Positions 1 through 64,000 of a DNA stretch of 64,000 nt are shown piece after piece. A program made the position numbers and the translations under genes. The notes under the pieces are model-generated. The model saw only the letters and a program-made list of their open reading frames with translations. It had not been told where the DNA came from and ran no database searches. The stretch's first letter is position 1. Each line of letters starts with the position of its first letter. The DNA is from a virus (Duplodnaviria > Caudoviricetes), in IMG/VR virus record IMGVR_UViG_3300014204_007089, positions 42,131 to 106,130 of that record, one strand, 5' to 3'.

Positions 1-614
1 TATCCATCTAATATAATTCCACTTTCAGAACCACGTGCAATAAATTTAGCATATCCATCCATTGGATTTCCACCACCATCTCTTCTAACACTTGTACAGC
101 GTATAGTCCAAGTTTCAGGTGGAGAATTAATATCTACTAATGTCAGATTAGAAATAGTACCATTCCCAATATTATTAGTAGAAGATTTATAATATTGATC
201 ACCTGTTTGTCTTACAAGTGAAGCTGGTTGCAATTCGATTTGCCCAGTTTCAGGATCTAATCTAGCATCAAATCTAGAATCAAATGATAATAAATCAACC
301 ACATCTTCTGACAGGTTAAGTTCAATTCCATTTTTGAACAATCTAGATCTATTTATTACAACAGGAGCTACTACATCTTGTCCTATACCTAATAAAAAGT
401 GACGTCCATCAGAGCCTGTTGAAGATGTGTAAGTTGGATTGAAACCATCGTTTCCGTTACCGTTAGCGGAACCAACTAAGGTTTCTTCTTTCAAACCTTC
501 ACCTATAATTAAAGCAAGGCGAGAACCAGTTGGTACACTAACGCTACGCTGAAGCGTTTTTGTTTCTGAATACACGCCTGGAACTACACTTGTTGCACCT
601 GGAATATTGGCCAT
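1..614 (-). CDS. Contractile tail sheath protein, 5' part (runs off left edge)
   Basis: Not in ORF track. Hand translation from ATG 614 (RBS GAGAGG): MANIPGATSVVPGVYSETK..., open to base 1. PGVYxE is the typical sheath N-terminal motif. Confidence 0.75.
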   Translation of the reverse strand, partial: MANIPGATSVVPGVYSETKTLQRSVSVPTGSRLALIIGEGLKEETLVGSANGNGNDGFNPTYTSSTGSDGRHFLLGIGQDVVAPVVINRSRLFKNGIELNLSEDVVDLLSFDSRFDARLDPETGQIELQPASLVRQTGDQYYKSSTNNIGNGTISNLTLVDINSPPETWTIRCTSVRRDGGGNPMDGYAKFIARGSESGIILDG

Positions 615-699
615 TTATAATCCTCTCAAAGCTATTATTGCCTTATTATATGTTAAACTATTACTATTAGCTTTGCATAAACTAATACGTAGATATGCA

Positions 700-1515
700 T
701 TACAAAATTTCAATTTGATCCAAAAGAGATAATTTTTGATTAATTTCTAAATCAGGAACTATTATATTCTGAAATTCAGTAGTATTGAATGCTCTAAAAT
801 CTATACAAAAATTTATTGTTTCAATTATTCCATCTATTGGTATTAATCTTCTCCACTCACTACGAAAATCAACATTAATAGAAGCTTTATAAAGTTTATC
901 TTGTTGACGATCTTCACCTTCGGAAACTCCGCCAAGACTTGGTTGACCAGATTTTATTAATAAACCAGCCTTTCTAAAACTTTCAAATCTTATATCAGCA
1001 AACATTAACATCAAAATATCTACAAGATTATCTCTAGAATAAATATCTCTTGTTAATATATCTATTGTTAAAGTTCCTTCCCAAGCTCCTGATAAATCAA
1101 TATATTTAGGAGTAAAATATGATCTAAAATTTCCATATCCATCATCTATATAATATTTTTCATATTCAATTATATCTTTATTTCTATTCATTGAAATTGG
1201 AACATATTTAGCAGATGATACTTTTACCAAAATAGCAGGATAGAATATTGCATCAAAATGACATGCTTCTCCAATATAAATTCTAGTTGTTAGATTATCA
1301 TTATATCCAGCATCTTGTGGTAAATCTGTAATATCAACTACTTTTGGAAATCCAAATTCATCAGATACATATCTATAATATGTATCTTGAGCAAACTCTT
1401 CCCTAAGGATTCCTATAACTAATTCTTTAGGATAAGATGTAAGCGCGTTCTGTACAACATTATGTATATTGTACAGTTCATGCCTTACAAGATTTCCAGT
1501 TCCTGGAGTTGTCAT
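700..1515 (-). CDS. Virion protein, possibly tail completion/terminator
   Basis: 271 aa, directly upstream of the sheath gene; YPAILV strand motif; function inferred from position. Confidence 0.45.
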   Translation of the reverse strand: MTTPGTGNLVRHELYNIHNVVQNALTSYPKELVIGILREEFAQDTYYRYVSDEFGFPKVVDITDLPQDAGYNDNLTTRIYIGEACHFDAIFYPAILVKVSSAKYVPISMNRNKDIIEYEKYYIDDGYGNFRSYFTPKYIDLSGAWEGTLTIDILTRDIYSRDNLVDILMLMFADIRFESFRKAGLLIKSGQPSLGGVSEGEDRQQDKLYKASINVDFRSEWRRLIPIDGIIETINFCIDFRAFNTTEFQNIIVPDLEINQKLSLLDQIEIL

Positions 1516-1521
1516 AAAATA

Positions 1522-1533
1522 ATACTAAAATAT
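1522..1533 (-). promoter_or_regulatory. ATA-N5-GTAT putative late promoter element (representative copy)
   Basis: Recurs upstream of virion-block genes, often 6 nt before ATG. Confidence 0.4.
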
Positions 1534-1558: not shown

Positions 1559-4500
1559 TTATGGATAATCAAAAGTACCAAAGTTTTCTGAAGATACAAT
1601 CCAATTTTCTGGATATGTACCAGATATAATATTATTTCTATCAGAAACATCAAACCAATTTGTAGAAATAAATCCATGACCATCACCTAATACATATATA
1701 GGTCTTGTTAAACCAGTTATATTAATTGATTTTAATGTATTTCCAATTATTAAATTATTATTTGTTTTAACTGATGCATAAATACCATGTAAAATATTAT
1801 TGCATTTATTTCCAGTAATAGATAAACTTCCAATAATATACATTGCATAAAGATATTGTAATGAAGTATTTGAATTACCATTTATAATATTATTTGCACA
1901 AATAATTTGATTATTATATGTTGGATTATTTCCAATAACAACTAATGCATATCTCTTTGTGGTTGAAGTTGTAACTATTTGATTAAATAATATGCTATCA
2001 TGTACAACAAATGTATTTTCCGAAATAATACAATTATATTCAACAGAATTTATTTTCATAAATTCAACTGTATTTCCTCTGATAATATATTCTGCTCCAT
2101 AAATTTCTTCATAATAATCAATTGAGTCGGCATATTTTCCATAACTATTTATAGTAGCAAATATACCACTTATAATTACTTTGGATTGATTATCTAATAT
2201 GTGTATTTGATTATTTAATGAATTATTTATTATATTAAATCCAATTAAACCTAATTGATTATTACGAATAACACAATTTTCAATATTACAATATGTAGGA
2301 TTAATCCAACCATTACCAGAAGTAGTAGCATGTCCTGATATTAATAATCCTTGATAACCATCTATCTTTGTATCTTCAATTATAATATTAGACATTGTAG
2401 GATAATTCAAAGATCCTGCACCATTAATATTTATAAAAGCATATGCTAAACTCTTTTTTGCATAATCTGATGAATCTTGTAAAATATTTCCACTAAAAGT
2501 TATATTTTTAAAAGTATTCGTAGTTCCAAAACATGAAACAAATGGTGGTCTTGGAGTGCTTTGTAAACTATAAAAATGTGAGTTTTCAATTATAAAATTT
2601 TCTATATTTGTAGCAGGAGTAATAATACTTTTTGCAACAAATGCTCCATAATTATAATTCAAACCAAAAATATTTATTGAACTAAGAGTTGTACTTGGTG
2701 TATAAAATACTTTTGCATCTTTAATCTTGCAATTTCCTTTAGTAAAAACCAAACCAATGTTACTATTTAATTCATAAGTTCCACCAATTAATTCTACATA
2801 ATTATCAAAAGATAAATATATTTCTGTATCATTAACTTTAACATATTTTACTTTAACTTGAGTAAGTCCATATTCATTAACCCAGTTACATAAAGAATCA
2901 ACTGTTATAAAGTTTGCATTATATCCATCTGTTTCATCACAATTACACCATGTAAAAGATCCTAAATCTTGATTTGTTATAAATCTACGAGCATCAGTAA
3001 CTGATTCTAATATAAAAGTACTAGTTAAATCAGCTATAACTTTAGCTATGATTGTTAAATCTTTTCTAGTATCAATAATATCTTTAAAACTTAAAGTTTC
3101 AATAAAATATTGAGTGCCAGAAGTTGTAAAGAATTGAACACCTACATCTTTAACTATTGCTTTTAATTGACCTGTTTTAGTAATACAAATAAAATATTCT
3201 ACAGTATCACTAATACTAGATTTAATTTCTGGTAATTTTACACTGTAAGAATCCATTGGTACAAATGAACCATTTACTAATGCTAAACCACCTGAGAATG
3301 TTAAAAGAGATCTCCCAGTAGATCCTGTACCAACACCCTTATATTCGAATCCACGTACAATACCATTAGCATGTAAATAACGTTCACCAGATTGTATAAA
3401 TTCAATAGCAGAATCTGATAGGTTCGTTTCTGATACCGTTCCAAATTCTCTTAAATCAGTAATAGACATAACATGATTACTACTATGACTTACACCTGCA
3501 ATTAAGAAATATTCATCATTTTTTGAAGCTGTTGGAAAAATTTCAATATCTATAATTCTTGGTTCTGTAGTACATACAATAGTTCCAGGATTAATGGTAT
3601 CTTCACGATATTCAATATCAATATAATTTATATATGTATTATCATAGAATCTTAATACATTGTCTTTTGTACCTTTAGTAATAGGTCCAATATTTATTAA
3701 ATTAGAAGTGCCATTTGGTTCACCTATATAACCATCAAACTCACCTGTAGATGAATTATAATTTCTAAGACATAATCTAACAAAATATCTATATATAGAA
3801 GGATCTGTTTGATATCCTATTATTTTTTTAGATACATTACGTATTCTCCAATTATCTTTTAATGTATCAAATAATATAACGGTTTGAGTGCTTTTTAAAA
3901 TTCTTGCACGTTCTATTCCAAATGTATGACCTTCATTATTAATAAATATTTCATGATATCTATGATAATCACCAGGAACATTTACAAGTTGTGTAGTATT
4001 AAAACCAACAGAATCGTCTGAGAAATAAATTCTTACAATATCTCCTATTGAAGATGTTGCTCCTAAAGCTATATCTATATCATCAGAATGAACACCATTT
4101 ATAACACTTATAGTTGTAGTTTGTACAATATCACAAGGAGCATTATAAGATACTTTACCAATAATAAATCTTCCATATCCAATAATACTTGGGTCATTTT
4201 GATTTATTGATTGTATAACAATTGTTTTACCAGGTTTTAAACCTTCAGATCTTAAATCTGCATTAATTTCATATTGGACAACTTGAGATCCATCAACAAT
4301 ATTTACATCATTAACTACTGCTAATAAATATCCATCACCTTGTACAAAGTTTTTAGAACCAACTAAATCCCTTCTTGTTCCATTAATAACAGCATAACGA
4401 TATTTTACTGGTTTAATTATAAACGTTGATAAATTAGAAGCTGATTGTGGTCCTGAATACGAAGTTGTATTTATAGGAGATGCAAAACCAGCTCTTGATA

Positions 4501-6175
4501 AACCCAATCCTAATGGATCATTGCCATCATACGCATCCCCAATAACATTTTGTGTATAAATAGATGGAATTATTGTATCACCACTAACAACACCATTTAT
4601 AATAGAAAAAGAAGATTCATTATAAAAATCTGCTAACATTATACCAAATTCACCCTTTTGATTAAAAGCAATAAATCTGTAATTATAACCAGCGGCTCTA
4701 AATGCTTTGTTTGTTTCTTCAACAACTCTATCTATTGTATATTTTCCACAACTAGCTCCTGCATCTCCTGTAACATCTATAGGTGGCAAATTTGAAAATG
4801 ATGTTAATGTAGTATCTAAATATAATCTTAAATAAAGATTATAATGAGTAGAATCTAATTGGCCAGGATCAAACCCTAATCCAACAGCAACAGCTCCTCT
4901 TGGATTACCTAAAATAATTCCATCAGGATATGGTGAAATTCCTGGAAGAACAGGAAATATATTTTGATATGCCCCAGCAGCTACAAATACACCCCATGTA
5001 TTTGTATCAAATTTAGACTTATCAATTCTTGCACGTGCATATCCATCTATAACATTTACCAAATTATATGCATTAATTCTTACTACCCATTTTCTTTCAG
5101 GTACAAATTCATGAGAAACTGATTTAATTGGAAAATCTTCAGATACATACGAATATCCATCCTGCCAAATATATCCATCTTCTCCTTCATCCCAAATATA
5201 ACCATCATATCCAGACCAAACTGGATATGTTATACGTACAATATCACCAACTAAAACACGTCCAAATTTTTCATCAAAAGAATAACTATCAATATCTTCT
5301 TGAGATGGTATAAATTCAACAATATCATCACCATTAGCTATTGTGTCATTTGGATCTGTTTGATCTGGCATTGCTAAATAAACATATACTGATGTTAATG
5401 GAACAACATTCATTCCATATCCATCACCAGATAAATTATCATTTCTAGCAGTACGACAAATTCCATTTGAATGTAATGTAGCTCTATCAAGACCAGCTGA
5501 TAATGTTTCTCTTTGATCTAAATAATTAAATACAGATTGTACATTTGTTTTATCTACTGGAATTTCTAAAAATTCTGAAGAATCAACTTCAATAGCGCTA
5601 GCTACATGAGCATTTGTTATTTCATTTTCATGACCAATTAATTCGTTATTAATTTCTACTAATGCAGATGCTACATTAACCGATGGTCTTGGAGTTCCAT
5701 CTTTTTCATATAAAGTATATAAACCACCATCTAACATAATAGCACTAGCATTATGATTAGATGAAGTTCCTGCTATATGTCCTATAATATTTAGATTAAG
5801 ATTTAATAAACTTAATTGAATAGAAGAAATAGAACTTACTAAAGTTTCTATTCTATTATTTAAACTTGAAGTTCCAAAATCAAGTTTAAGTTTTGATTCT
5901 ATTATATTTGCATTTGTTGCAATTTGATTATTATCAATTGGAAATGTCGGTAATCCTAAACCAGTTAAATTAGGAGTTCCATCAGCATTGATAAAAACAG
6001 AAATACGATCATTTAAATTTGTTTTTGAACCTTGCACATTTATACCAATTGTTTTTTCAATAGAAAAAACAGCTTGTCTTAATTGGTTTATTGCAGTAGT
6101 TCCAAGTTCAGATAAATTATCATCAATCCTAACTACACTTACATCATTATCAATTGCTGAAGGATAAGTTGTCAT
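1559..6175 (-). CDS. Large virion (baseplate/fibre) protein with C-terminal beta-helix
   Basis: 1538 aa; N-terminal YPxxxD...INQLRQAVFSIEKTIG module like that of 18466..23373; Asn/Ile-rich beta-helix-like C-terminus; 9 DGY. Confidence 0.65.
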   Translation of the reverse strand: MTTYPSAIDNDVSVVRIDDNLSELGTTAINQLRQAVFSIEKTIGINVQGSKTNLNDRISVFINADGTPNLTGLGLPTFPIDNNQIATNANIIESKLKLDFGTSSLNNRIETLVSSISSIQLSLLNLNLNIIGHIAGTSSNHNASAIMLDGGLYTLYEKDGTPRPSVNVASALVEINNELIGHENEITNAHVASAIEVDSSEFLEIPVDKTNVQSVFNYLDQRETLSAGLDRATLHSNGICRTARNDNLSGDGYGMNVVPLTSVYVYLAMPDQTDPNDTIANGDDIVEFIPSQEDIDSYSFDEKFGRVLVGDIVRITYPVWSGYDGYIWDEGEDGYIWQDGYSYVSEDFPIKSVSHEFVPERKWVVRINAYNLVNVIDGYARARIDKSKFDTNTWGVFVAAGAYQNIFPVLPGISPYPDGIILGNPRGAVAVGLGFDPGQLDSTHYNLYLRLYLDTTLTSFSNLPPIDVTGDAGASCGKYTIDRVVEETNKAFRAAGYNYRFIAFNQKGEFGIMLADFYNESSFSIINGVVSGDTIIPSIYTQNVIGDAYDGNDPLGLGLSRAGFASPINTTSYSGPQSASNLSTFIIKPVKYRYAVINGTRRDLVGSKNFVQGDGYLLAVVNDVNIVDGSQVVQYEINADLRSEGLKPGKTIVIQSINQNDPSIIGYGRFIIGKVSYNAPCDIVQTTTISVINGVHSDDIDIALGATSSIGDIVRIYFSDDSVGFNTTQLVNVPGDYHRYHEIFINNEGHTFGIERARILKSTQTVILFDTLKDNWRIRNVSKKIIGYQTDPSIYRYFVRLCLRNYNSSTGEFDGYIGEPNGTSNLINIGPITKGTKDNVLRFYDNTYINYIDIEYREDTINPGTIVCTTEPRIIDIEIFPTASKNDEYFLIAGVSHSSNHVMSITDLREFGTVSETNLSDSAIEFIQSGERYLHANGIVRGFEYKGVGTGSTGRSLLTFSGGLALVNGSFVPMDSYSVKLPEIKSSISDTVEYFICITKTGQLKAIVKDVGVQFFTTSGTQYFIETLSFKDIIDTRKDLTIIAKVIADLTSTFILESVTDARRFITNQDLGSFTWCNCDETDGYNANFITVDSLCNWVNEYGLTQVKVKYVKVNDTEIYLSFDNYVELIGGTYELNSNIGLVFTKGNCKIKDAKVFYTPSTTLSSINIFGLNYNYGAFVAKSIITPATNIENFIIENSHFYSLQSTPRPPFVSCFGTTNTFKNITFSGNILQDSSDYAKKSLAYAFININGAGSLNYPTMSNIIIEDTKIDGYQGLLISGHATTSGNGWINPTYCNIENCVIRNNQLGLIGFNIINNSLNNQIHILDNQSKVIISGIFATINSYGKYADSIDYYEEIYGAEYIIRGNTVEFMKINSVEYNCIISENTFVVHDSILFNQIVTTSTTKRYALVVIGNNPTYNNQIICANNIINGNSNTSLQYLYAMYIIGSLSITGNKCNNILHGIYASVKTNNNLIIGNTLKSINITGLTRPIYVLGDGHGFISTNWFDVSDRNNIISGTYPENWIVSSENFGTFDYP

Positions 6176-6635: not shown

Positions 6636-9608
6636 TTAAAAATCATAATTACCATAATTCTCTGATGTTAAAATCCAATCACTAGCTCCTGACCCATCTA
6701 AAATTATTGTTTCATCATCAATATCAAACCAATTTGATGAGACTATACCATGTCCACCTACTACAAAAATTGGTTCAGTCATAGAAACTTTATAATTAGA
6801 ATTAAAAGAATTTCCACAAATTAAACTACCATTCATTGTAGCATTAAGTTGAATAAAATTATTTGCTAAAGTACCAACATTACAATACCATGATAAAATC
6901 ATATTACTATTTATATTTGCAATACCACTAGTTACTATAGATGTTGCACAATGATATTGTGTAAGTATTCCAGTGTTTCTATGTTCTATAGTATTATTTA
7001 TAACTTTTACTATAGAATATATACCCGCATAATAAGTATTTATTCCTAGGGCACTTATTATATTAACAGTCATAGCAGTGCCATTAGGATATACAAGAGT
7101 ATAATCATGACATGAATAATTTACATCATTTGAATTAAAATTAACATTCCAACCAGGTGCCATTATATTTACCAAACACCCAATTAAAGTTCCATATTCA
7201 GACCTTACATCAATTGGTCTTACATTCGTTCCTGTTAAAACTCCAATAAATTTATTATCAGAAATATTAATAGATGAAGAAGATATTTGACCTTCTTCAT
7301 CAGAAAGAACACTGCCAACACACATTGTATGATTAGAATATCCTGCAGTAGATGTTTTTATACATAATACATTACTTATACCATTAGTTGGAATATCATG
7401 ATGTCTAATTTCATTTCCATGTATATTAATTTTACCACCAATAATTCCAGAACCACTACTAACACTAAAATCATAAATATAAACAGGAATTCCACCAATT
7501 ATTTTGTTGTTATTTAATTCTATTAATTTTTCAGATGATAAATAACAACAAATAATTGAATGTAAAAAATCACCTGTTACATATAAACCTTTTTGATCTG
7601 GTCCAGAAATATTACTATTATTAATTACTAAAGAATTTGTACCTGTAATATTAGTGTGATATTTATAATAATTTACAGAATTTAATAAACTAGCAGATAC
7701 TAATACTTGTGGACTGTTTATATTTATATTATCTATAAATACGTTATAAGCATTTATAAAAATATAACTTTTTTGATTTGTAATAGCTGATTTTGTTCTT
7801 ATTCCACTAGCGGTTAGATTAAATATACAATTTTCTAAAGATACATAAGCATTAACATTGTTAACTCTAAAACCATAACCATAACCATTAAAATAACAAT
7901 TTAAAACATAGCAAGAACTTGATAATATATCTAAATTAACAATATCACTAAATACTCCGGTTTGTTCAAATCTACAATTTTCTACAATGGCACTTTTTGT
8001 ATTTTCAATACCTACAGTACAATTAATAAATGAAACATTTTTGAAAATATTATAATCTTGAACATCTTGTAAATTAGAAATAATTTGTTGAGGATGATTA
8101 ATTGCTACAAATTCAATATTTTCTGCTTTACCAATATAATTAGTATAAACTCCAGAAGTTAAATTTTGAATATCAGAATTTAATTGAATAATAACTTTAC
8201 GACTTGTTCCATATGTACTACTAGTACTAATATTTCCAATAATTTTTCCAACTTTAAGTTGAGTATTAACAGTATATGTTCCAGGATTAACAATAATAAT
8301 CTGTTCACCCCTACTACTAAGATAATTTTCATCTATACTTGAAATACCAAGCGCGGTTGTATTTATTAAAGAATTAACTAATTCAAGAGAATCTGTTCCT
8401 GTAAAATCACCAGTTGAATGTATACCATCACCTATTGTAATATACCATGGATTACTTTTAACTGATCCCCAAAAATTTCCTACATCAGATAATATAAAAG
8501 CCCATTTAACAACCCTTGAATCAAGAATATAATTAGTACGAGACATTAATTCATTTGAATCAGGATTATCAGTTATAAAAATACTACCTTTATTTCCAAT
8601 CAAACTAACAAATGCATTTTCAACTGGTACAGCTTGCGCTATCAGATTTAAAAAATATCCATATTTTGTATACCCTGTTAAAGTATATGCAAAATAATAA
8701 TTATTATGAATAAAAATTTTACCAATACAAGTTGAAATAAAATAACCAGTATTTGTTGTTGTTATAGTCCTTACCCTGCAATTTTCTACACGTAATTCTG
8801 ATAAATGAGGTTCATTAGTTGGTGCAAATCTTATAGCTGTACTAACACCATCAATATAACATTTATTTAAATGAAGAATTGTTGGAGTACTAACAGGTGC
8901 TGGTGAAACAGGTGTAACAACTCTTATACCATAACGAGTTGTTATTCCACCATATACGCGACCAATAATTGTAACATTTTCTAATAATAATTCGCACCCT
9001 TCGTCCATTTGTATTAATTGTCCATTAGTCCAAGAAGGTGCTCCACTATTTACATTTCCGTCTTTATTATCAAATATGGTTATATTCCAAAGTCTACTCA
9101 TTTTTGTAGATATTATTGTTTCAAGACCATGTATACCAAGATTTTCAATATCTTCTGAATATAAAAATTTAAAAGCTGGACCATTAATAACTTCTGATAC
9201 TATTCTAGCTCCACCTGGTTCTCCCCAAATAGTAATACCTTTAGGAACCTCAACGGTTTTTCTTAAAATATAATCACCAGGTTTAATTACAATAATTCCA
9301 CCAATACCATTGATTCTAATTCTGGCAAAAGCCCATTGAAATGCATAATATAAATCTTCTTTTGGAAGAGTATTATAACCATCTCCAATAGTAATAAAAC
9401 CACCATTAAGACCACTAAAAGCTAATTCTTCTAATGTTCCTTGTAATGTTGTCGATGTAAATTCAGGAAGTACAGGATTTAAATCTATTTGAGTAGCATC
9501 ATGTCTAAAATCACCACCATTATAATGTGCAACGAAATTCTGATTATGAGTAGCTGAATACCCACCTTCTCGTTCACGTCCACTTCCAATAAATCTAGTT
9601 CTGACCAT
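6636..9608 (-). CDS. Tailspike-like protein with pectate-lyase-type beta-helix domains
   Basis: 990 aa; GGIIVIKPGDY...GITIWG and IIIVNPGTY beta-helix caps; repeated IxNNxF turns. Confidence 0.65.
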   Translation of the reverse strand: MVRTRFIGSGREREGGYSATHNQNFVAHYNGGDFRHDATQIDLNPVLPEFTSTTLQGTLEELAFSGLNGGFITIGDGYNTLPKEDLYYAFQWAFARIRINGIGGIIVIKPGDYILRKTVEVPKGITIWGEPGGARIVSEVINGPAFKFLYSEDIENLGIHGLETIISTKMSRLWNITIFDNKDGNVNSGAPSWTNGQLIQMDEGCELLLENVTIIGRVYGGITTRYGIRVVTPVSPAPVSTPTILHLNKCYIDGVSTAIRFAPTNEPHLSELRVENCRVRTITTTNTGYFISTCIGKIFIHNNYYFAYTLTGYTKYGYFLNLIAQAVPVENAFVSLIGNKGSIFITDNPDSNELMSRTNYILDSRVVKWAFILSDVGNFWGSVKSNPWYITIGDGIHSTGDFTGTDSLELVNSLINTTALGISSIDENYLSSRGEQIIIVNPGTYTVNTQLKVGKIIGNISTSSTYGTSRKVIIQLNSDIQNLTSGVYTNYIGKAENIEFVAINHPQQIISNLQDVQDYNIFKNVSFINCTVGIENTKSAIVENCRFEQTGVFSDIVNLDILSSSCYVLNCYFNGYGYGFRVNNVNAYVSLENCIFNLTASGIRTKSAITNQKSYIFINAYNVFIDNININSPQVLVSASLLNSVNYYKYHTNITGTNSLVINNSNISGPDQKGLYVTGDFLHSIICCYLSSEKLIELNNNKIIGGIPVYIYDFSVSSGSGIIGGKINIHGNEIRHHDIPTNGISNVLCIKTSTAGYSNHTMCVGSVLSDEEGQISSSSINISDNKFIGVLTGTNVRPIDVRSEYGTLIGCLVNIMAPGWNVNFNSNDVNYSCHDYTLVYPNGTAMTVNIISALGINTYYAGIYSIVKVINNTIEHRNTGILTQYHCATSIVTSGIANINSNMILSWYCNVGTLANNFIQLNATMNGSLICGNSFNSNYKVSMTEPIFVVGGHGIVSSNWFDIDDETIILDGSGASDWILTSENYGNYDF

Positions 9609-43475: not shown

Positions 43476-43484
43476 AAAATCCTT

Positions 43485-44735: not shown

Positions 44736-44759
44736 TATTGTATAATATTCAACTTAGTA

Positions 44760-46075: not shown

Positions 46076-46106
46076 ATAAAAATACTTACATTTAAGTTAA
46101 ATCTTT

Positions 46107-47487: not shown

Positions 47488-47495
47488 TTAAATCC

Positions 47496-51305: not shown

Positions 51306-51411
51306 ATAAAGAAACCATTCCTTTTATCTTTAAAATAATTTTCAAATAATACCTGATCAACAGGTGGAGACCATTGTCCATAAAATTTCCTATTAAAATC
51401 TAAACCAACTT

Positions 51412-51672: not shown

Positions 51673-51674
51673 AA

Positions 51675-51983: not shown

Positions 51984-51989
51984 ATTTCC

Positions 51990-52463: not shown

Positions 52464-52493
52464 ATGTTTCCTGTATTATTATTGTTTTTTATA

Positions 52494-54702: not shown

Positions 54703-54732
54703 AATTTACACCAAGTATTAATTATAATTATA

Positions 54733-56207: not shown

Positions 56208-56215
56208 AAAAATAC

Positions 56216-56223
56216 GATATATC
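56216..56223. promoter_or_regulatory. Palindromic GATATATC, putative shared promoter core of divergent GT genes
   Basis: Instance of the (T)GATATA(T) motif; 8 nt from the minus ATG and 7 nt from the plus ATG. Confidence 0.55.
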
Positions 56224-56230
56224 AACAAAC

Positions 56231-57175
56231 ATGGTAAAAGAAATTAATATTGTATATTATGGTCATCCTAAAAAATCTCTTGAATACGATGGTCCTGAAG
56301 GAAAAGTTTGGATAAATAATATTCGTGACAAGAATATTCCAAATGTATTTATGGGATATGAATCTTGTAAATATCCTATAAATAATGATAATTTTATAAT
56401 GCTTGAACCAATTACTGTTAGTTTAAAAGATTATGATTATTTTTATTTAAATAAATATTCTAAAATATTTTCACCATTTTATAAAGTATTTGAAAATACT
56501 AATATTAAACATAAAATTATTCCAATAAACTATGCTAGTAATGATAGATTTATTCTTAATAAAAATATAAATAGTTGTCATATTACTTATTTAGATTTTA
56601 TAAATAATTGGAATTCACATGATAATAGAATTAATGGTGCTGTAATTATCTCAGCTGATAAATTTTCAAATCACAAATCTTCTATATATGAATTACGAAA
56701 TTTTATTGGTAATATTTTATATAAAAATAAAATTATAGTTTCAAAATATGGAACATCAAGGTTACCTTTACCATATTTTAAAGGTAGAACTACAGATAAA
56801 CTTGGTGAAATTTGTAAATATAAATTTAATATCTGTACTGAAAATATTTATGATCCATTATATTCTTATAACTATTTAACTGAAAAATTACCTCATGCTA
56901 TATATGGTGGAGCTGTTCCTATATATATTGGATGTTATAATGTTGAAGATTTTGTTCCAGAAAAAGCATTTATTGATTTAAGAAAATTTATAATTACAAA
57001 AAATAATAATAAAACAATTGATGAAAAAGAACTTATAAACTATATAAAAAACTTTTCTAAACAACAATTTGAAGAATATCAGCATGCTGCTATTCAATAT
57101 ATGAAAGATCCGAAAGGTATTTTCTACCAAACAGATCCTAATAGATACTATAAAAAAATGTTAGAAATATTATAA
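56231..57175 (+). CDS. GT10 fucosyltransferase-like
   Basis: YKFNICTEN...YLTEKL...VPIYIG; the only convincing plus-strand gene. Confidence 0.8.
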   Translation: MVKEINIVYYGHPKKSLEYDGPEGKVWINNIRDKNIPNVFMGYESCKYPINNDNFIMLEPITVSLKDYDYFYLNKYSKIFSPFYKVFENTNIKHKIIPINYASNDRFILNKNINSCHITYLDFINNWNSHDNRINGAVIISADKFSNHKSSIYELRNFIGNILYKNKIIVSKYGTSRLPLPYFKGRTTDKLGEICKYKFNICTENIYDPLYSYNYLTEKLPHAIYGGAVPIYIGCYNVEDFVPEKAFIDLRKFIITKNNNKTIDEKELINYIKNFSKQQFEEYQHAAIQYMKDPKGIFYQTDPNRYYKKMLEIL

Positions 57176-57910
57176 TTCTTTATATGGAATAAATAATTGT
57201 TTTTGTTTTTGAGAATATAGTCCACAATTTTTTCTAAATTGTGGGAAATTATCATTATGTTGTTTAGTTTTAAAATCTCTATATTTACCAATATCATTTA
57301 ATCCACTACCTAAATGATTACCCATTCTTTCAATATAACCAATTTTAAATCCTAAAACACGAGTTCTAACTCCAAAATCAGCATCTTCCTCTCCATAAAT
57401 TCCATATTCTGTATTAAAAAATCCAAGCATTTTATGTAACTGTTTTGTAAAAACCATACATGCAGTACCTAAATTGCCATGTGGTTTATCTTGGAATGAA
57501 TATCCATTTTTTGTAATAACTGTATATTTAGTATCTTCAAAATTTACACCAATAGCTGCAAATCCTTTATTAGCAATTAATATATTAATACATTCATCTA
57601 ACCATCCATTTGGCATTTTAACATCATTATCAATTGTACAATACCATTGTGTATTTAATTCATCTGCTTTTTTCAAACCTATATTACGGCCAACAGCAAT
57701 ACCTTTATTAGAATTAACAAGATTAATATGATATTTAACATTTTCTGTATCTTGTAAAGTATTAAGATAATTAATAGTTCCATCAGTTGAACCATTATCA
57801 ATAATTACTAAATTATATGGACGATTAACAGTATTTAGTAAATCATCTAATGTTTCTTTTGTTAAATTTAATCTGTTATAAGTTACCATCATTAATGTAG
57901 TATTTATCAT
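57170..57910 (-). CDS. GT2 glycosyltransferase
   Basis: VTYNR, IDNGSTDGT, IDND, YGEEDAD; start at ATGA overlap. Confidence 0.85.
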   Translation of the reverse strand: MINTTLMMVTYNRLNLTKETLDDLLNTVNRPYNLVIIDNGSTDGTINYLNTLQDTENVKYHINLVNSNKGIAVGRNIGLKKADELNTQWYCTIDNDVKMPNGWLDECINILIANKGFAAIGVNFEDTKYTVITKNGYSFQDKPHGNLGTACMVFTKQLHKMLGFFNTEYGIYGEEDADFGVRTRVLGFKIGYIERMGNHLGSGLNDIGKYRDFKTKQHNDNFPQFRKNCGLYSQKQKQLFIPYKEL

Positions 57911-58878
57911 ATAAAACCTTCGCATATATTAAAAACATCTATTGGAGATATCCATTTTGTATATACAAATATATCATTCTCAATACCAAGTGACTCGGCA
58001 TTTTTTAATAAATCCAATGGACCATTAATTTTTCTAGATATTAATTTCGATTTAGAAATCATCATAGATATTATTAACCAATTTATATCATTTGATAATA
58101 CCATCCATGATTTTATTACTGTTTGCATTATATTTTTAAAATCATATTTATATATATTTATATTTGATCCATAAAAACTATATATATATTTTGTAAATAA
58201 TACTACCTTAAATCCTTTATTTGATACTAATTGTGCAAATTCTTTTATATTATGAATATTCCAATCTAACATATTATTATCGCAATCATTTAAAATAATT
58301 GAAATTATTTTAGTTTTATTAGAATTAAATTTTCCAGTTTTATATAAATTATCTATAAATTCTGTACCTAAATATCTGAGATTTGGAGTATAATTATTCC
58401 ATGGAATTAAAACGTTTTTATATATTTGTTCAAAAATTGGAAGATTAATTTTTTCAGGATATTTACCCCAATAACTATTTCGAATTAAATAATTATTTAA
58501 TATATTAAAATAAGCATTATCATTTTTATCAAAAAATATTGGAACTGGATAATTTTTTAAATTTTCCTCTGTAATTTTTATATTACTTAATGTACATAAT
58601 CCTTGAAATTTTACAAAATCATAATACTCAAAATTTCCAATCCATGATAATTTATTATTATTTACTGTATGTTTAATAGCTTCAGCTGCACATAATGAAA
58701 TGAAAGATTCTAATATTCCACCAAATGCCGTTATTATAATATGTTTATCTTTTAAAACATCATTCCAAATTTGTCCATCAATTTCTGGAATAATATATTT
58801 ACCACGTTCAATTTTCCATGGAATTCCAGCTGAAAATGGAAAAAATTTGGATTTATATTTTATTTTTTTACGTGACAT
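57907..58878 (-). CDS. Hypothetical protein, possibly divergent GT-B
   Basis: 323 aa within GT operon; no clear motif. Confidence 0.45.
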   Translation of the reverse strand: MSRKKIKYKSKFFPFSAGIPWKIERGKYIIPEIDGQIWNDVLKDKHIIITAFGGILESFISLCAAEAIKHTVNNNKLSWIGNFEYYDFVKFQGLCTLSNIKITEENLKNYPVPIFFDKNDNAYFNILNNYLIRNSYWGKYPEKINLPIFEQIYKNVLIPWNNYTPNLRYLGTEFIDNLYKTGKFNSNKTKIISIILNDCDNNMLDWNIHNIKEFAQLVSNKGFKVVLFTKYIYSFYGSNINIYKYDFKNIMQTVIKSWMVLSNDINWLIISMMISKSKLISRKINGPLDLLKNAESLGIENDIFVYTKWISPIDVFNICEGFI

Positions 58879-58935
58879 TTTGTAAATTGATTTTATTTTT
58901 TATTAATTAAAAAAGAGAGTTAGGGGTTTAACAAA

Positions 58936-59724
58936 CTAATCTGCTTTATTGAATTTTCCATCCCATTTATTTTTAAATGTCTTTAAATTATGATTCCACA
59001 TTATTTTATTAACAGGATTTTTCTTTAATGATGCACTTTCTTCATGAAATATCTTAGTTTTTCCACAATACATAATTTTTTTATTAAGATTATATTTTAC
59101 AGATAAATTAAAATCAACATCTTCAAAACACCAAAAATATTTTTCTGAAAATCCATTTAAACCACTAATATTTGTAGTGCAAACTTTTCTAAAATATTCA
59201 GCTTTTGTTAACATACAAGCTGCTGTTACTGCTTCAGCTTCATTATTACTTCTAGATTTATCATCGTCCTTTTCACCGTGACGAAAATTGTATGGAATGT
59301 AATTATATTTTTTTGAAAAATATATTCCAGCATGTTGTAATAAATTACTATTTGGATATAAAATACGACTTCCAACTATACCTACATCACTTTTAAATAA
59401 AGAAATCATATTATCAATTGATGAATTATCTCCAAACCAAAGATCATTATTTAATAATAGAATTAAATCATTATCATCTGGTTTAATTCTATCAAATAAA
59501 ATATTCATTCCAGATGAAAATGAATTTCTATTATGACCGCAAAAATATGTTTTAATTCGATTTGATTCGATCGATTTTAAAAACTGATCCGATCCATCCT
59601 TAGATCCATTATCTTTAATATGCCAACAATAATCTAAATAGCTCAGAGATGGGATTAGAGTCTTATGCAGCCTACGGAGCATGTCTATTTGATTCCAATG
59701 TAGTGTAAGTATTTTTAATTTCAT
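58936..59724 (-). CDS. GT2 glycosyltransferase
   Basis: DNGSKDGS, LLNND, VTAACML, EDVD. Confidence 0.88.
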   Translation of the reverse strand: MKLKILTLHWNQIDMLRRLHKTLIPSLSYLDYCWHIKDNGSKDGSDQFLKSIESNRIKTYFCGHNRNSFSSGMNILFDRIKPDDNDLILLLNNDLWFGDNSSIDNMISLFKSDVGIVGSRILYPNSNLLQHAGIYFSKKYNYIPYNFRHGEKDDDKSRSNNEAEAVTAACMLTKAEYFRKVCTTNISGLNGFSEKYFWCFEDVDFNLSVKYNLNKKIMYCGKTKIFHEESASLKKNPVNKIMWNHNLKTFKNKWDGKFNKAD

Positions 59725-60434
59725 GCAAGCTCCGATTTTCGATTACTCCATAGTTGAATAAATATATTACGTGATTTTAGATACATATCCCCTAAATTAA
59801 GCTTTTTTCCTGTAACTCGACCAATATGTTTTACCGGAATATTAATTATTAAAAAATGAATTCCAAGTATTTTTGCTCTAAAAGAAAGATCTGTATCTTC
59901 AAAATATGCAAAAAATTTAGTAAAAAATGGACCTTCTTCATTTTGAATAATTAATTTATCCCATATATTTGCTGAGGCGGAAATACACCATCCGCTCATA
60001 TACCAAAATCCTCGTGAAGGAAATTTACTTGATTCACAAATAAATTGAAAATTATTATCTAAACAACCAATTGTTGGTCCAACTATTAATCCTTTTTTGC
60101 ATTCTGAAATAATATCATTAGTCCAACAATTTTCTTTATCAATAATTTTAATATCATTATTTAAGAACATAATATTTTCATATCCTAATTCTTTACTTAA
60201 AATAAATCCTTGATTACACGCTTTTCCAAATCCAAGATTAATATTATTTCTAATGATTTTAATTTTATCTGTTGAATTTAATAATTTAGTATTATCAGTA
60301 CTATTATTATCAACTAATATAATTATGTGAGATGAAGGTAATTTAGATAAACTATTCAATGTATTATTTGTATATTGAAAATTATTAAAAACTGGAATCA
60401 CTATCGCTAACTTTTTTTCATTTGAACTGTTCAT
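59721..60434 (-). CDS. GT2 glycosyltransferase
   Basis: IVIPVFN, VDNNSTD, FLNND, YFEDTD. Confidence 0.88.
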   Translation of the reverse strand: MNSSNEKKLAIVIPVFNNFQYTNNTLNSLSKLPSSHIIILVDNNSTDNTKLLNSTDKIKIIRNNINLGFGKACNQGFILSKELGYENIMFLNNDIKIIDKENCWTNDIISECKKGLIVGPTIGCLDNNFQFICESSKFPSRGFWYMSGWCISASANIWDKLIIQNEEGPFFTKFFAYFEDTDLSFRAKILGIHFLIINIPVKHIGRVTGKKLNLGDMYLKSRNIFIQLWSNRKSELA

Positions 60435-60872: not shown

Positions 60873-61991
60873 TTAAGAATCAATTGATAATATTTGTTTT
60901 GCTGCTAAATTCCATGTAAATTTTTCTGAAGTAGTTTTCATATTTTGTGAAAATAAAGATTTTAAGTGATCATATTGTTCAACTGCTAATTTTAATTTCT
61001 TTGCAGCATCATCTGTGTTAATAACAAAATGCACAGCAAATGGGTTTGATTCCCAATACTGGTGATTTTTTGGAGCACGTTTAACAGATCCATCTATTAA
61101 TAAAGAATTTGTATTATTACAGAAATCCAAAATTCCACCATATCTAGGAACAATATTTATTAATCCACAAGCTAATGCTTCAAGTGAAGGTAAATGCCAA
61201 CATTCAGTATGTGTAGCTGAAAAATTAATATCACAAGCTTTATAAATACTAGCTATATTTGTAATATAATCAAAAACAAATTCAACTTCTGCATGATTTG
61301 GAAATTTATGTTCAAATTCTTTGTAAATTTGATTAAAATCAACATCAAATGGATGATTTGTTTTATTTTGTTTAAATATTTTTGCAACTAAACATACATC
61401 ATCTTTTTTGGTAAAAGCTTTGCCAAAAGCTTCTAAAGCTAAATGTAATGCTTTTCTAAGATGAGGTTGTGCTACATTTAGTAAAATCTTTTTATTTTTC
61501 TTTGTTTTTAAACTCCAAACTTCATCTTTGGTATAATCTTCTAAATTAATTCCATGAGGAATTACAATCATTTTATTTTCAGGAATTTTCATATTTAAAA
61601 ATACATCTTTGGTAAAATTAGAAGATGGAAGTACATAATCTACAGATTTATAATATTTACCAAAACCATGTAATAGTGAAAAAGATTTATTATCAAATTG
61701 TTTAGAATTATATTCATAATTCCAAATTGCATAACGTCGTTTTATTCCATTGGAAGTATAATTTGGCCAATTATGTGGTGCAGTATAACTTAATTGCATA
61801 TCATAAATTCCATTTGGCCTATCTCGAACAAAAGGAATTAAATCTTTTGGTAAAAATCTATAATCAATTCCATCTGTAGATATAAATTCTACATCATGTC
61901 CTTGTTTAATAAATGCTCGCCCTAAATTTTGACCTACAACTGCCCACGAGTGTGATTTAAAAAATAGAAATTGTTGTATTTTAATTCGCAT
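60873..61991 (-). CDS. GT4 glycosyltransferase
   Basis: VIPHGI, RKA, ECWHLPSLEALACG. Confidence 0.88.
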   Translation of the reverse strand: MRIKIQQFLFFKSHSWAVVGQNLGRAFIKQGHDVEFISTDGIDYRFLPKDLIPFVRDRPNGIYDMQLSYTAPHNWPNYTSNGIKRRYAIWNYEYNSKQFDNKSFSLLHGFGKYYKSVDYVLPSSNFTKDVFLNMKIPENKMIVIPHGINLEDYTKDEVWSLKTKKNKKILLNVAQPHLRKALHLALEAFGKAFTKKDDVCLVAKIFKQNKTNHPFDVDFNQIYKEFEHKFPNHAEVEFVFDYITNIASIYKACDINFSATHTECWHLPSLEALACGLINIVPRYGGILDFCNNTNSLLIDGSVKRAPKNHQYWESNPFAVHFVINTDDAAKKLKLAVEQYDHLKSLFSQNMKTTSEKFTWNLAAKQILSIDS

Positions 61992-62080
61992 AATAACTCT
62001 TTGTTAATAAATAATATATCATTAACAATTAAGTTATGTATTGTATTGTTTTTGTTTTTTGTTTTTTTTTAGCTAATTTA

Positions 62081-62362
62081 TTAACAACCAGCATGCCAAA
62101 TATGCACATCTACAGTACCAGTTCCTTTAAACCAAATTTTATCTTCGTTTCTTAAATCAAAATTAAATATTTGATCTGCACTAATTCTTCCATGAGTTGT
62201 TACACCATTAAAAGAATATTCAACATTATCTCCAGTAATTCCTACAAACATTATACGTCTAGCTCCACGAAATGTTACAAGTACTTGTGGATCTATTGTC
62301 CAACTTCCTACAGCAGTTACTGTTTTAAAATAGTTAAAATCTTTTCCTTTTGTTTCAGTCAT
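62081..62362 (-). CDS. Small beta-rich hypothetical protein
   Basis: 93 aa, RBS GAGGT, downstream of fibre gene. Confidence 0.6.
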   Translation of the reverse strand: MTETKGKDFNYFKTVTAVGSWTIDPQVLVTFRGARRIMFVGITGDNVEYSFNGVTTHGRISADQIFNFDLRNEDKIWFKGTGTVDVHIWHAGC

Positions 62363-62378
62363 ATTAAAATACCTCTAT

Positions 62379-64000
62379 TTATTTTTCTTCTAATAATTGT
62401 ATTCTTGTTTTTAAATTTTCAATTATAATTTGTTGTTCTTGAACAGCTTTAATTAATACTGATATAAATTCACTATATCCTAGTGTTTTAATATCTCTTC
62501 CATTATTAATAGAATGATCTTGATAACCACCAAAATCAACTCCTAATTCATCACATACTAATTTTACTTCTTGAGCAATTAATCCGTGATGATATCTATT
62601 TCTCTTTTTTGAATTATCTTTATTTACAATATAATCTTCTCTATAATCCCATTTAAAATCTACAGGGCGGAGTTTATTTATAAATTTAAGACCTAATACA
62701 GTATTTCTAACATCAGCTTTATCTCTAATATCTGAACGATCTTGTACAGCTCCATAAACATAAGTTGTAGTTGTTGAATCGCCTAATTGTATTTGACAAC
62801 TTCCTGAAACAATTGAATTAGCACCAATACAAGTACTATTAAAATATGAAGTAGTTGAACCAAATGCATTATATCCAATAGCTGTATTATTATATCCGTC
62901 TATTAATTCATCACCAGCTTGAAATCCAATTAAAGTGTTTCCATTTGATATTATATTACCACCAGAAAAACTTCCAATTGCAACATTATTACTTATTCTG
63001 TTTACTGAATTTGTATTATTATACAATGCATCATAACCAATAGCAACATTATCATATCCATCATGTATAAAATATCCTGTTTTAAATCCAAGTGATGTAT
63101 TTCTACTTCCTGTACTTAGAGAAAAAAGTGAATTATTTCCAATTGCTGTGTTTTTATCTCCTGTTTGTAATGTTTGACAAACAGAATAACCCATTAATGT
63201 ATTATATGATGAAGTTAAAATTGCATTTGCACCAGCACCATATCCCATAGCTGTATTTTCTACTGCCGTTGTTACTTTTGAAAGAACATTATAACCAACA
63301 GCAGTTGCTGTACCACTTGTTAATGCAATACATGTATTATTTCCAATAAATGTATTAGATGATGAAGTTGTATTTGCACCAGCACCATATCCAATAGATG
63401 TATTTTTAGTTCCTGTTGTTACTTTTGAAAGTGAACTATAACCAATTGCTATACTTTCTGCTCCGCTGCTTAATAATTCAGCTGCTTTATAACCAATTGA
63501 TATATTATAACTTGATGTTATTAAATTTCCAGCATTATGTCCAATAGCAATATTTCCAATACCAGTTTCATTAGATTTTAAAGCATAATATCCTATACCT
63601 ATATTTGCAGCACCTGTTGTATTTGAACTAAGAGTTTGATAACCAATTGCAATTGCAGGAACTGTACTTAATTTTGCAGCTTGATATCCAATTCCAATTA
63701 ATCCAGCAATAGTGCTTGATACACAAGCCTCATTACCAATAGAAATATTATTTGGCATTGTTATACGACTAAAATATCCATCCATCCAATAATTTAAAGG
63801 TGTACCTAAACTTAATTCATTTGATGTATAAGAATATAAAGAATAATTGGTTAAATTTAATTTTTTAATAGATCCAATATAAGTAGTTAAAGATGTTTGT
63901 GCTTTTATATAACCATCTCCAATAATAATATCATTAGAACCAAAATTAAAAGTTGCTTCTCTAGTTGTTGTAGTTAAATAAGTAGAGCCTATTGTAGTTA
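62379..64000 (-). CDS. Tail fibre with C-terminal intramolecular chaperone (peptidase S74); 5' end outside window
   Basis: Frame is open from 63998; NxAIGYxA repeats; SDIRDK...LRPVDFKW...HGLIAQEV. Confidence 0.85.
   Translation of the reverse strand, partial: TTIGSTYLTTTTREATFNFGSNDIIIGDGYIKAQTSLTTYIGSIKKLNLTNYSLYSYTSNELSLGTPLNYWMDGYFSRITMPNNISIGNEACVSSTIAGLIGIGYQAAKLSTVPAIAIGYQTLSSNTTGAANIGIGYYALKSNETGIGNIAIGHNAGNLITSSYNISIGYKAAELLSSGAESIAIGYSSLSKVTTGTKNTSIGYGAGANTTSSSNTFIGNNTCIALTSGTATAVGYNVLSKVTTAVENTAMGYGAGANAILTSSYNTLMGYSVCQTLQTGDKNTAIGNNSLFSLSTGSRNTSLGFKTGYFIHDGYDNVAIGYDALYNNTNSVNRISNNVAIGSFSGGNIISNGNTLIGFQAGDELIDGYNNTAIGYNAFGSTTSYFNSTCIGANSIVSGSCQIQLGDSTTTTYVYGAVQDRSDIRDKADVRNTVLGLKFINKLRPVDFKWDYREDYIVNKDNSKKRNRYHHGLIAQEVKLVCDELGVDFGGYQDHSINNGRDIKTLGYSEFISVLIKAVQEQQIIIENLKTRIQLLEEK

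What the first reader, a model, noticed from the sequence alone, without database searches (positions are those of the whole stretch)
1..64000. A D-G-Y tripeptide marks virion proteins only: candidate modification tag read by a phage glycosylation/sulfation system
Seen: hand counts of DGY are sheath fragment 1 (plus a probable one cut at base 1), 700..1515 1, 1559..6175 9, 6636..9608 1, 9637..11247 5, 15585..15968 4 in 127 aa, 18466..23373 12, and 62379..64000 4. That is about 37 in roughly 5,800 residues, where composition would predict only one or two. I found none in RNR, DnaB, helicase, tubulin, MetAP, IscS, TnpBs or the GTs. Codons vary (GAT GGA TAT, GAT GGT TAT/TAC, GAT GGC TAT, GAC GGA TAT, GAT GGG TAT), so selection acts on the peptide rather than the DNA. 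The motif sits in unrelated folds, often in loop-like clusters. Inference: a short linear tag for post-translational decoration of the virion (Tyr O-glycosylation as in some Gram-positive S-layers, or Tyr sulfation in acidic context) by the 39-62 kb cluster. Alternatives are a docking site for a decoration protein, metal binding, or crosslinking.
Basis: partly seen in the sequence, partly recalled or inferred. Interest (0 to 1): 0.92.

Follow-up and report, generated by a model that had tools for sequence, protein, structure and literature searches.

The report
DGY tag on huge-phage virion proteins
The tail, neck, sheath and fibre proteins of this uncultured huge phage and its many relatives carry the exact tripeptide Asp-Gly-Tyr 10-20 times more often than chance; it behaves like a recognition tag, most plausibly for sugar attachment by a conserved phage enzyme, but no modification has been shown.

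Summary
The window has 37 in-frame DGY in 8 ORFs and none in 43 others. The whole 106-kb contig has 68, and its structural block holds 64 against 3.9 expected.

DGY is by far the most enriched of all 8000 tripeptides. The five other orders of D, G and Y, and NGY, EGY and DGW, sit at or below chance. Flanking residues carry no information and codons vary, so the signal is a bare peptide motif, not DNA or a paralogous repeat.

The trait is shared by more than 100 related huge phages (GC 29-56%). New sites arise repeatedly. Homologues outside the clade keep a D/N/E-G turn without Tyr. Some sites lie in flexible loops or in (DGY)5-6 tandem tracts, which argues against a purely fold-dictated turn.

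Of the window's sugar genes, only the GT4 at 60873-61991, directly after the fibre genes, tracks the trait. The sulfotransferases, GT10, GT11 and two GT2-type genes (58936-59724, 59721-60434) are dispensable.

The best reading (about 0.4) is a tyrosine O-glycosylation sequon. Adhesion, another modification, docking and a structural turn remain open. DGY is not avoided in non-virion proteins.

This scan has already reported the same trait on other DNA, in at least 38 genomes.

The parts
3..614 (-). N-terminal 204 aa of the 824-aa tail sheath. DGY at residue 186, a second at 203-205 cut by the window edge, a third at 409 outside the window.
   Evidence: PHROG tail-sheath hits on the full ORF; counts. 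Sites 186 and 203 are conserved in 53 and 57 of 79 clade orthologues; site 409 is DGV/DGA elsewhere.
700..1515 (-). 271-aa protein next to the sheath, 1 DGY (residue 125).
   Evidence: Site is DGY in 54 of 60 clade orthologues and TDY/NEY/NDY/DAF in the sister clade.
1559..6175 (-). 1538-aa structural-block protein with no known family, 9 DGY.
   Evidence: Orthologues carry 2-11 DGY in 32 distinct columns; some sites are conserved and three lie in insertions.
6636..9608 (-). 990-aa structural-block protein, 1 DGY.
9637..11247 (-). 536-aa neck protein with FN3-like N-terminal domain and C-terminal HxH motifs, 5 DGY (27, 168, 186, 189, 228).
   Evidence: AF2 pLDDT 85.7. Foldseek hits to phage neck proteins of Pam3, 812, T4 and phiKZ. 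Sites 27, 186 and 228 are DGY in 71-76 of 80 homologues.
15585..15968 (-). 127-aa Ig-like protein, 4 DGY, all in two loops.
   Evidence: AF2 pLDDT 80; loops 21-34 and 57-76 are non-regular with low pLDDT. Weak Ig V-like fold hits. Loop expansions made of DGY-rich runs in homologues.
18466..23373 (-). 1635-aa glycine-rich protein with a head-decoration-like C-terminal stretch, 12 DGY.
   Evidence: phrog_20658 at residues 1468-1534; counts.
62379..63998 (-). Tail spike with Peptidase_S74 chaperone domain, truncated by the contig end, 4 DGY.
   Evidence: phrog_4636 E=4e-98 and PF13884. The SPO1 and Staphylococcus phage homologues have GDGV, NGA and EGD at the aligned sites.
60873..61991 (-). GT4 glycosyltransferase, first gene after the fibre/spike genes; candidate reader of DGY.
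   Evidence: PF00534/PF13439. Invariant E263 and E271 (EX7E spacing) in 26 homologues. Present in 28 of 36 related records. The 8 without it comprise 4 that show no DGY excess (two near-complete, G027 and G028; two fragments, G031 and G032) and 4 DGY-rich fragments that are 7-46% complete.
39208..60434 (-). Variable soluble glycan island: GMD, two epimerases, FkbM and C-methyltransferases, 2 Sulfotransfer_2, GNAT, GT11, GT10 (on the + strand), 4 GT2-type genes, 2 TnpB.
   Evidence: Pfam. Only some members have homologues in relatives. No multi-span membrane protein found by a hydropathy scan.

Best explanation
DGY is a short linear motif that selection has written many times onto the outward-facing virion proteins (sheath outer domain, neck, baseplate wedge, fibres, spike, Ig-like decoration protein) of a large clade of uncultured huge phages. 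Something specific to that clade reads it.

The most likely reader is the soluble GT4 glycosyltransferase encoded directly after the fibre genes. It would put the first sugar on the tyrosine hydroxyl in the cytoplasm, with Asp at -2 and the Gly turn presenting the residue. The lineage-variable enzymes of the downstream island would extend it, here to a fucose-based, methylated and possibly sulfated glycan. The result would be a glycan coat on the particle.

Shown: the enrichment, its peptide nature, repeated gain, loop and tandem placement, clade specificity, and GT4 conservation and synteny.

Inferred: that GT4 acts on protein, that Tyr is the acceptor, and that a coat results.
For: - Enrichment. 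The structural block has 64 vs 3.9 expected, P about 1e-53. A complete relative has 69 vs 6.4 in structural regions.
- Relatives. 80 related loci have 546 vs 61.7, while the other five orders of D, G and Y give 43-78, NGY 40 and EGY 13.
- Peptide level. Codons vary across GC 29-56%.
- No shared context. Flanks carry under 0.3 bit each, and site contexts are no more alike than random.
- Repeated gain. DGY occupies 73 distinct alignment columns in five families, the most of any tripeptide (NGY 18, DGW 5).
- Y added on pre-existing turns. DGV/DGA/DGG change to DGY inside the clade, and homologues outside it have GDGV, NGA or EGD.
- Exposed, autonomous placement. All four sites of the 127-aa Ig-like protein are in low-confidence loops. 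Homologues expand those loops with DGY-rich runs. A relative's fibre has (DGY)6 and (DGY)5 tracts just upstream of its GT4 gene.
- GT4. It lies immediately after the fibre genes in three genomes compared in full and keeps the EX7E glutamates. It is present in 20 of 21 and 8 of 15 related records. Two near-complete genomes without it show no DGY excess.
- No multi-span membrane protein was found in the island, which fits a cytoplasmic acceptor.
Against: - No covalent modification is shown, and no known GT4 glycosylates tyrosine (own knowledge).
- GT4 presence is phylogenetically confounded. It is a core gene of the whole lineage, including the sister clade where enrichment is only about 4-fold in structural genes, so it does not explain the strength of the trait.
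- DGY is not depleted from non-virion proteins (15 vs 16.9). Some depletion might be expected if a promiscuous cytoplasmic enzyme read a bare tripeptide.
- At some conserved sites the rare replacements are DGF, DGW or NGF, so there the aromatic ring rather than the hydroxyl seems to matter.
- The glycan island could instead act on host envelope precursors or DNA.
Confidence: 0.4

Rival explanations
1. DGY is a non-covalent adhesion element. Exposed Asp-Gly-Tyr tips act as many weak binding sites for glycans, metal ions or surfaces (host envelope, mucus-like polymers, particles), like Tyr/Gly/Asp-rich antibody loops or the aromatic hairpins of cell-wall-binding repeats.
For: - Sites sit in loops of an Ig-like domain that vary in length like binding loops.
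- Carriers are all outward-facing parts.
- Tandem and clustered copies exist.
- Tyr and Asp are typical sugar-binding residues (own knowledge).
Against: - The strict order D-G-Y with no excess of the other five orders, NGY or DGW is not expected of a composition-driven sticky surface.
- A tripeptide alone cannot form a binding pocket.
- Many sites are on the sheath and neck, far from the host-contact end.
Confidence: 0.2
2. DGY is the target of another modification or chemistry: tyrosine sulfation or phosphorylation, oxidative Tyr cross-linking or hydroxylation, or Asp-Gly isomerisation.
For: - A FAD oxidoreductase directly downstream of the fibre genes on this contig is present in 12 of 14 strongly enriched relatives and in 0 of 7 weakly enriched sister genomes.
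- Two sulfotransferase genes lie in the window.
- Asp-Gly is the most isomerisation-prone dipeptide (own knowledge).
Against: - The sulfotransferases are Sulfotransfer_2 type and have no homologue in a complete DGY-rich relative.
- The oxidoreductase is not next to structural genes in that relative. Its nearest solved relatives are uninformative. The contrast rests on one phylogenetic split.
Confidence: 0.13
3. DGY is only a favoured structural element: a type I' Asp-Gly turn followed by an aromatic strand residue that stabilises beta-rich fibrous proteins in this clade.
For: - In the neck-protein model the sites sit in ordered regions at coil-to-strand edges.
- The D/N-G turn pre-exists in out-group homologues.
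- D/N-G-hydrophobic tripeptides are generally common in these proteins.
- Rare replacements at conserved sites include DGF, DGW and NGY.
Against: - NGY, an equally good turn, is not enriched (40 vs 64).
- Homologues with the same fold outside the clade lack the Tyr.
- Four sites lie in low-confidence loops.
- (DGY)5-6 tandem tracts and DGY-rich loop insertions cannot be hairpin turns.
- Flanks show no strand pattern.
Confidence: 0.12
4. DGY is a docking site for a virion decoration or assembly protein that recognises the tripeptide on assembled surfaces.
For: - The motif is confined to outer parts and is clade-specific.
- Small Ig-like and decoration-like proteins are encoded among the structural genes.
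Against: - No candidate binder was identified.
- The motif also covers the presumed decoration protein itself.
- Dozens of sites per protein in unrelated contexts are unusual for docking.
Confidence: 0.1

Closest known systems
Virion glycosylation of mycobacteriophages by phage-encoded glycosyltransferases (Che8 and relatives; Freeman et al. 2023, as cited in PMC11256854)
   Same: Phage-encoded soluble glycosyltransferases and abundant structural proteins as presumed acceptors, giving a glycan shield on the particle.
   Different: There the glycans were shown by experiment on capsid proteins. Here nothing is shown, the carriers are tail, neck and fibre proteins, the acceptor would be Tyr in a fixed tripeptide, and the phages are unrelated huge myoviruses.
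Short bacterial protein-glycosylation sequons (Campylobacter D/E-X-N-X-S/T; Bacteroidota D-S/T-A/I/L/V/M/T) - own knowledge
   Same: A three-to-five-residue linear motif with an acidic residue two positions before the acceptor, read in many unrelated proteins.
   Different: Those are read by membrane oligosaccharyltransferases outside the cytoplasm, on Asn, Ser or Thr. Here there is no membrane enzyme, a Tyr acceptor, and a 10-20-fold proteome-level enrichment that those sequons do not show.
Tyrosine O-glycosylation of Gram-positive S-layer proteins (beta-Glc or beta-Gal to Tyr; PMC2943079)
   Same: Shows that bacteria-type systems can link glycans to tyrosine on surface-array proteins.
   Different: The S-layer glycans are built on lipid carriers and transferred outside the cell at two to four sites. 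No DGY sequon is described in the paper read.
Cell-wall/choline-binding type aromatic hairpin repeats, and the repeated domain in Bacillus phage G fibre proteins
   Same: An Asp-Gly turn followed by aromatic residues; phage G gp420-431 hold 14 DGY vs 2.2 expected.
   Different: In phage G the motif sits in a long conserved repeat, six copies ending in DGYWYVRG. That is paralogy. In this phage the contexts are unrelated and Pfam finds no such repeat.

Membership tests
Protein glycosylation sequon system | Short linear acceptor motif recurring in many unrelated proteins | tested here: met
   68 sites in 13 ORFs (the 14th count is the window's copy of the sheath N-terminus), with flanks uninformative and contexts unrelated.
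Protein glycosylation sequon system | Dedicated transferase that co-occurs with the motif | tested here: inconclusive
   GT4 is present in all adequately covered DGY-enriched records and absent from two near-complete records without enrichment. It is a lineage core gene, so the association is phylogenetically confounded.
Protein glycosylation sequon system | Covalent glycan on the acceptor residue | not testable with these tools
   Needs mass spectrometry or structure determination.
GT4 glycosyltransferases (retaining GT-B) | Pfam Glycos_transf_1 / Glyco_transf_4 domains and the EX7E glutamates | tested here: met
   PF00534, PF13439 and PF13692. E263 and E271 are invariant in 26 homologues. 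The EX7E motif of GT4 is described in PMC2943079.
Mycobacteriophage-type virion glycosylation | Phage-encoded glycosyltransferases plus experimentally glycosylated structural proteins | tested here: inconclusive
   The glycosyltransferases are present. Glycosylated proteins are not testable here.
Tyrosine sulfation (TPST/RaxST type) | A tyrosylprotein sulfotransferase conserved with the motif | tested here: not met
   The two sulfotransferases are PF03567 (Sulfotransfer_2) and have no homologue in complete DGY-rich relative G001.
Type I' beta-turn as a purely structural motif | Equivalent turn formers (Asn-Gly) and other strand residues equally favoured, and conserved in homologues of the same fold | tested here: not met
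   NGY 40 vs 64 expected. Out-group homologues have the turn without Tyr. Loop and tandem sites exist.
Cell-wall-binding / paralogous repeat domains | Extended conserved repeat around the motif | tested here: not met
   No Pfam repeat. Pairwise context identity equals random controls, with one paralogous pair only.

The most novel reading that the evidence does not exclude
DGY is the sequon of an undescribed cytoplasmic protein tyrosine O-glycosylation system. A phage-specific GT4 primes tyrosines on folded outer virion proteins. Lineage-variable islands build different glycans on them, so that a whole clade of huge phages carries a programmable sugar coat on tail, neck and fibres.
Probability: 0.35. 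Interest if true: 0.9.

Novelty: new variant of a known kind. Interest (0 to 1): 0.8.

Why it matters
A three-residue motif enriched 10-20-fold across the whole outer surface of a virus particle, in more than 100 related genomes from many environments, has no description in the literature searched.

If it is a sequon, it would define a new acceptor (Tyr), a new soluble protein glycosyltransferase family, and a way for huge phages to coat their tails with variable glycans. That has consequences for host recognition, particle stability and escape from adsorption blocks.

It would also give a compact tag (as short as DGY, or (DGY)n) for site-directed protein glycosylation.

If it is not a sequon, it is still an unexplained, strongly selected surface code that is directly testable with one small protein and one enzyme.

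Tried and rejected
- DNA-motif explanation. Rejected: 68 of 70 occurrences are in the ORF frame, there are none on the other strand, and codons vary in relatives.
- Paralogous-repeat explanation. Rejected by context comparison. Bacillus phage G, looked at as a possible cultured example, owes its excess to a repeated domain and is a different thing.
- GC or composition artefact. Rejected: the trait holds from 29 to 56% GC.
- GT2 genes at 58936-59724 and 59721-60434 as readers. Rejected: absent from complete DGY-rich G005.
- Sulfotransferases, GT10, GT11 and the GT2 at 55470. No homologue in G001.
- GT-B-like gene at contig 4883-5743. Present in only 9 of 21 records.
- Complex prediction of GT4 with the 127-aa protein gave 'no support'. 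This is not evidence either way.
- Megablast of the 1635-aa protein's gene, and tblastn of the sheath protein, against cultured phages: no match for the first, and only a weak sheath hit to phage G for the second.
- Single-protein locus searches for two distant sheath lineages found nothing.
- Major capsid protein not located with PF05065 or PF07068, so whether the capsid shell carries DGY is unknown.
- PHROG search of DGY-bearing ORFs of relative G001 was uninformative.
- Papers on Tyr-glycosylation sites (PMC4397588) and Freeman et al. 2023 (PMC10527164) are not held.
Full report
**1. The observation**

ORFs were called in all six frames. Nearly all genes lie on the minus strand of a 27.5% GC sequence.
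There are none in 43 other ORFs of at least 100 aa.
- Composition predicts 3.75. DGY is the most over-represented of all tripeptides (z 17.2), also against a first-order Markov model (10.1 expected). The next candidates are rare tripeptides seen twice.
- Close variants are not enriched: NGY 7 vs 5.4, DGF 6 vs 3.6, EGY 1 vs 3.6, SGY 3 vs 5.0.

The window is the right-hand 64 kb of a 106,130-b virus contig.
- On the whole contig there are 68 in-frame DGY in 13 ORFs (one search's list counts the sheath N-terminus twice).
- GAYGGNTAY occurs 70 times on the coding strand and never on the other.
- The contiguous block from the fibres to the 1635-aa protein, chosen without regard to DGY, has 64 against 3.9 expected (P about 1e-53).
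- All ORFs outside that block, leaving out the tail spike, have 0 against 2.1 (P=0.12).

The enrichment is therefore real and very strong. The 'only' is not a significant avoidance.

**2. What kind of signal it is**

- The eight residues on either side of the 68 sites each carry under 0.3 bit.
- The 20-residue contexts are no more alike than random positions of the same proteins. Only one pair, in the tail spike, is paralogous.
- Codons follow the genome's usage here (GAT GGA/GGT TAT). In relatives of 31-56% GC they become GAC GGC TAC and other combinations.

It is thus a bare peptide motif, not a DNA word or a repeated domain.

**3. The carriers**

Profile searches identify:
- a myovirus tail module on the contig: gp6-like baseplate wedge, gp25-like protein, sheath;
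- a tail spike with an S74 chaperone domain;
- a head-decoration-like stretch in the 1635-aa protein.

The 536-aa protein folds with pLDDT 85.7 and resembles phage neck proteins with an added FN3-like domain. The 127-aa protein is a small Ig-like sandwich.

Proteins without DGY include a 221-aa putative tube protein, the 914-aa, 1714-aa and 682-aa proteins of the inner tail region, and all replication and sugar enzymes: RNR with an intein, DnaB, UvsW-like helicase, tubulin, IscS, TnpBs and the GTs. For the inner tail proteins the expectation is only 0.63, so their zero is uninformative.

**4. Relatives**

- The sheath has hundreds of relatives in IMG/VR, many on contigs of 200-460 kb.
- In 80 loci around the sheath gene, DGY occurs 546 times against 61.7 expected. 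The other five permutations give 43-78, NGY 40, EGY 13 and DGW 13.
- Whole-record counts of the coding pattern against a reversed-pattern control are 4-10-fold in 14 records of the main clade. They are 1.5-2-fold in seven records of a sister clade with a 977-aa sheath.
- I fetched one complete genome of each clade. The 459-kb relative has 69 vs 6.4 in its structural regions and 15 vs 16.9 elsewhere. The 335-kb sister genome has 17 vs 4.0 and 15 vs 11.9.
- A wider panel adds more rich records, up to 130 vs 17 at 56% GC. It also adds two near-complete 125-140-kb phages with no excess.

**5. How the sites evolve**

- In orthologue alignments of five families, DGY occupies 73 distinct columns, more than any other tripeptide (NGY 18, EGY 9, DGW 5, DGF 30).
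- Some sites are kept in about 90% of the clade: neck protein 27, 186 and 228; the 271-aa protein 125.
- Others are lineage-specific or lie in insertions.
- Where a site is absent, the Asp-Gly or another turn is often still there: DGV, DGA or DGG in the sheath. The sister clade has TDY, NEY or DSF.
- The tail-spike homologues of Bacillus phage SPO1 and a Staphylococcus phage have GDGV, NGA and EGD at the aligned positions.

The fold therefore does not need the tyrosine; the clade adds it.

- In the 127-aa family the two DGY loops vary in length. In some members they are expanded by runs rich in DGY, and the window's copy has a 16-residue insertion with two DGY.
- In the model all four sites are in non-regular, low-confidence loops.
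- A fibre protein of a sister-type record has (DGY)6 and (DGY)5 tandem tracts.

These facts speak for an autonomous, exposed unit. Against that, in the neck protein the sites sit at ordered coil-to-strand edges. The rare replacements at two conserved sites keep an aromatic residue, so part of the sites also have a structural role.

**6. The candidate reader**

Window 39-62 kb is a soluble sugar island: GDP-mannose dehydratase, epimerases, methyltransferases, two Sulfotransfer_2, GNAT, GT11, GT10, four GT2-type genes and one GT4. A hydropathy scan finds no multi-span membrane protein.

In the three genomes compared in full the order is fibre genes, GT4, variable island, sugar-nucleotide genes, tubulin.

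Tested over 21 records:
- The GT4 is in 20; the exception is 40% complete. In three records it is fused to a second GT4.
- The GT2 at 58936 and the GT2-like gene at 59721 are in only 10 and are missing from a complete DGY-rich genome.
- The sulfotransferases, GT10, GT11 and one GT2 have no homologue in the complete relative.

In the second panel:
- The GT4 is present in eight records, all with DGY excess.
- It is absent from the two near-complete records without excess.
- The three DGY-rich records lacking it are 7-46% complete.

The GT4 keeps the two glutamates at EX7E spacing. Its look-alikes in the ESM Atlas are almost all viral clusters.

This is consistent with the GT4 as reader, but it is a lineage core gene. 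It is also present in the weakly enriched sister clade, so the evidence is correlative and confounded. A FAD oxidoreductase downstream of the fibres separates the strong from the weak clade (12 of 14 vs 0 of 7), but on one split only.

**7. Verdict**

- A context-free, order-specific, repeatedly gained, clade-specific surface motif is best explained by a reader (about 0.7 overall).
- Tyrosine O-glycosylation started by the conserved GT4 is the leading version (about 0.4).
- Sulfation by the window's cluster is unlikely.
- Adhesion, other chemistry, docking and a purely structural turn remain as rivals.

Nothing on a DGY motif was found in the literature searched. Bacterial Tyr O-glycosylation and phage virion glycosylation exist as precedents (PMC2943079; PMC11256854 citing Freeman et al. 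2023).

Earlier notes of this scan report the same trait in at least 38 other genomes. I treated them as leads. My tests agree on the enrichment. They narrow the candidate reader to the GT4, but they do not establish independent co-loss.

Noticed in passing
L285 (record G026, 66000-82000), ORF from about 66002: A fibre protein of more than 2958 aa has perfect tandem tracts (DGY)6 and (DGY)5, about 7-9 kb upstream of that record's GT4 gene.
   Followed up: partly
window 3-614 and contig 40270-42744 (sheath residues about 99-253): The DGY-bearing stretch of the sheath is a module also found at about 50% identity inside longer variants of the neck-protein family and other proteins (P0047, P0284, P0290, P0306). 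This suggests domain shuffling between outer virion proteins.
   Followed up: no
window 9637-11247, C-terminal 60 residues: Three conserved His-x-His pairs (invariant H488/H490, H514/H516, H529/H531) recall the metal-binding HxH motifs of T4 fibre proteins.
   Followed up: no
contig 8154-9395 (L001:8154-9395, minus strand): A FAD-type oxidoreductase directly downstream of the fibre genes is present in 12 of 14 strongly DGY-enriched relatives and in none of 7 weakly enriched sister genomes. Its function is unknown.
   Followed up: partly
window 26020-29943: The ribonucleotide reductase large subunit is interrupted by a LAGLIDADG-type element, probably an intein.
   Followed up: no
window 44795-45943 and 49911-51206: Two TnpB (OrfB_IS605 / Cas12f-like TNB) genes are inserted in the glycan island.
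   Followed up: no
window 13438-14583, 16994-17308 and 17322-18398: Two HNH-type endonuclease genes and an IscS-like cysteine desulfurase sit in the middle of the structural gene block.
   Followed up: no
window 39208-57175: The island combines GDP-mannose dehydratase, GT10 and GT11 fucosyltransferase-like genes, FkbM and C-methyltransferases and two sulfotransferases. This points to a methylated, sulfated fucose-containing glycan made by soluble enzymes.
   Followed up: partly
record G001, about 55700-55900 (L142): A short frame encodes a low-complexity Gly/Asp/Tyr/Ser run (GDGYGSGYG...). It was not called as an ORF by my filter.
   Followed up: no
L222 (Bacillus phage G, gp420-gp431): The large fibre-like proteins share a repeated domain ending in DGYWYVRG (six copies). 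It gives a local DGY excess by paralogy.
   Followed up: yes
L219:2903-5167 (record G005): In three relatives the fibre-adjacent GT4 is fused to a second GT4 domain in one protein of about 750 aa.
   Followed up: partly
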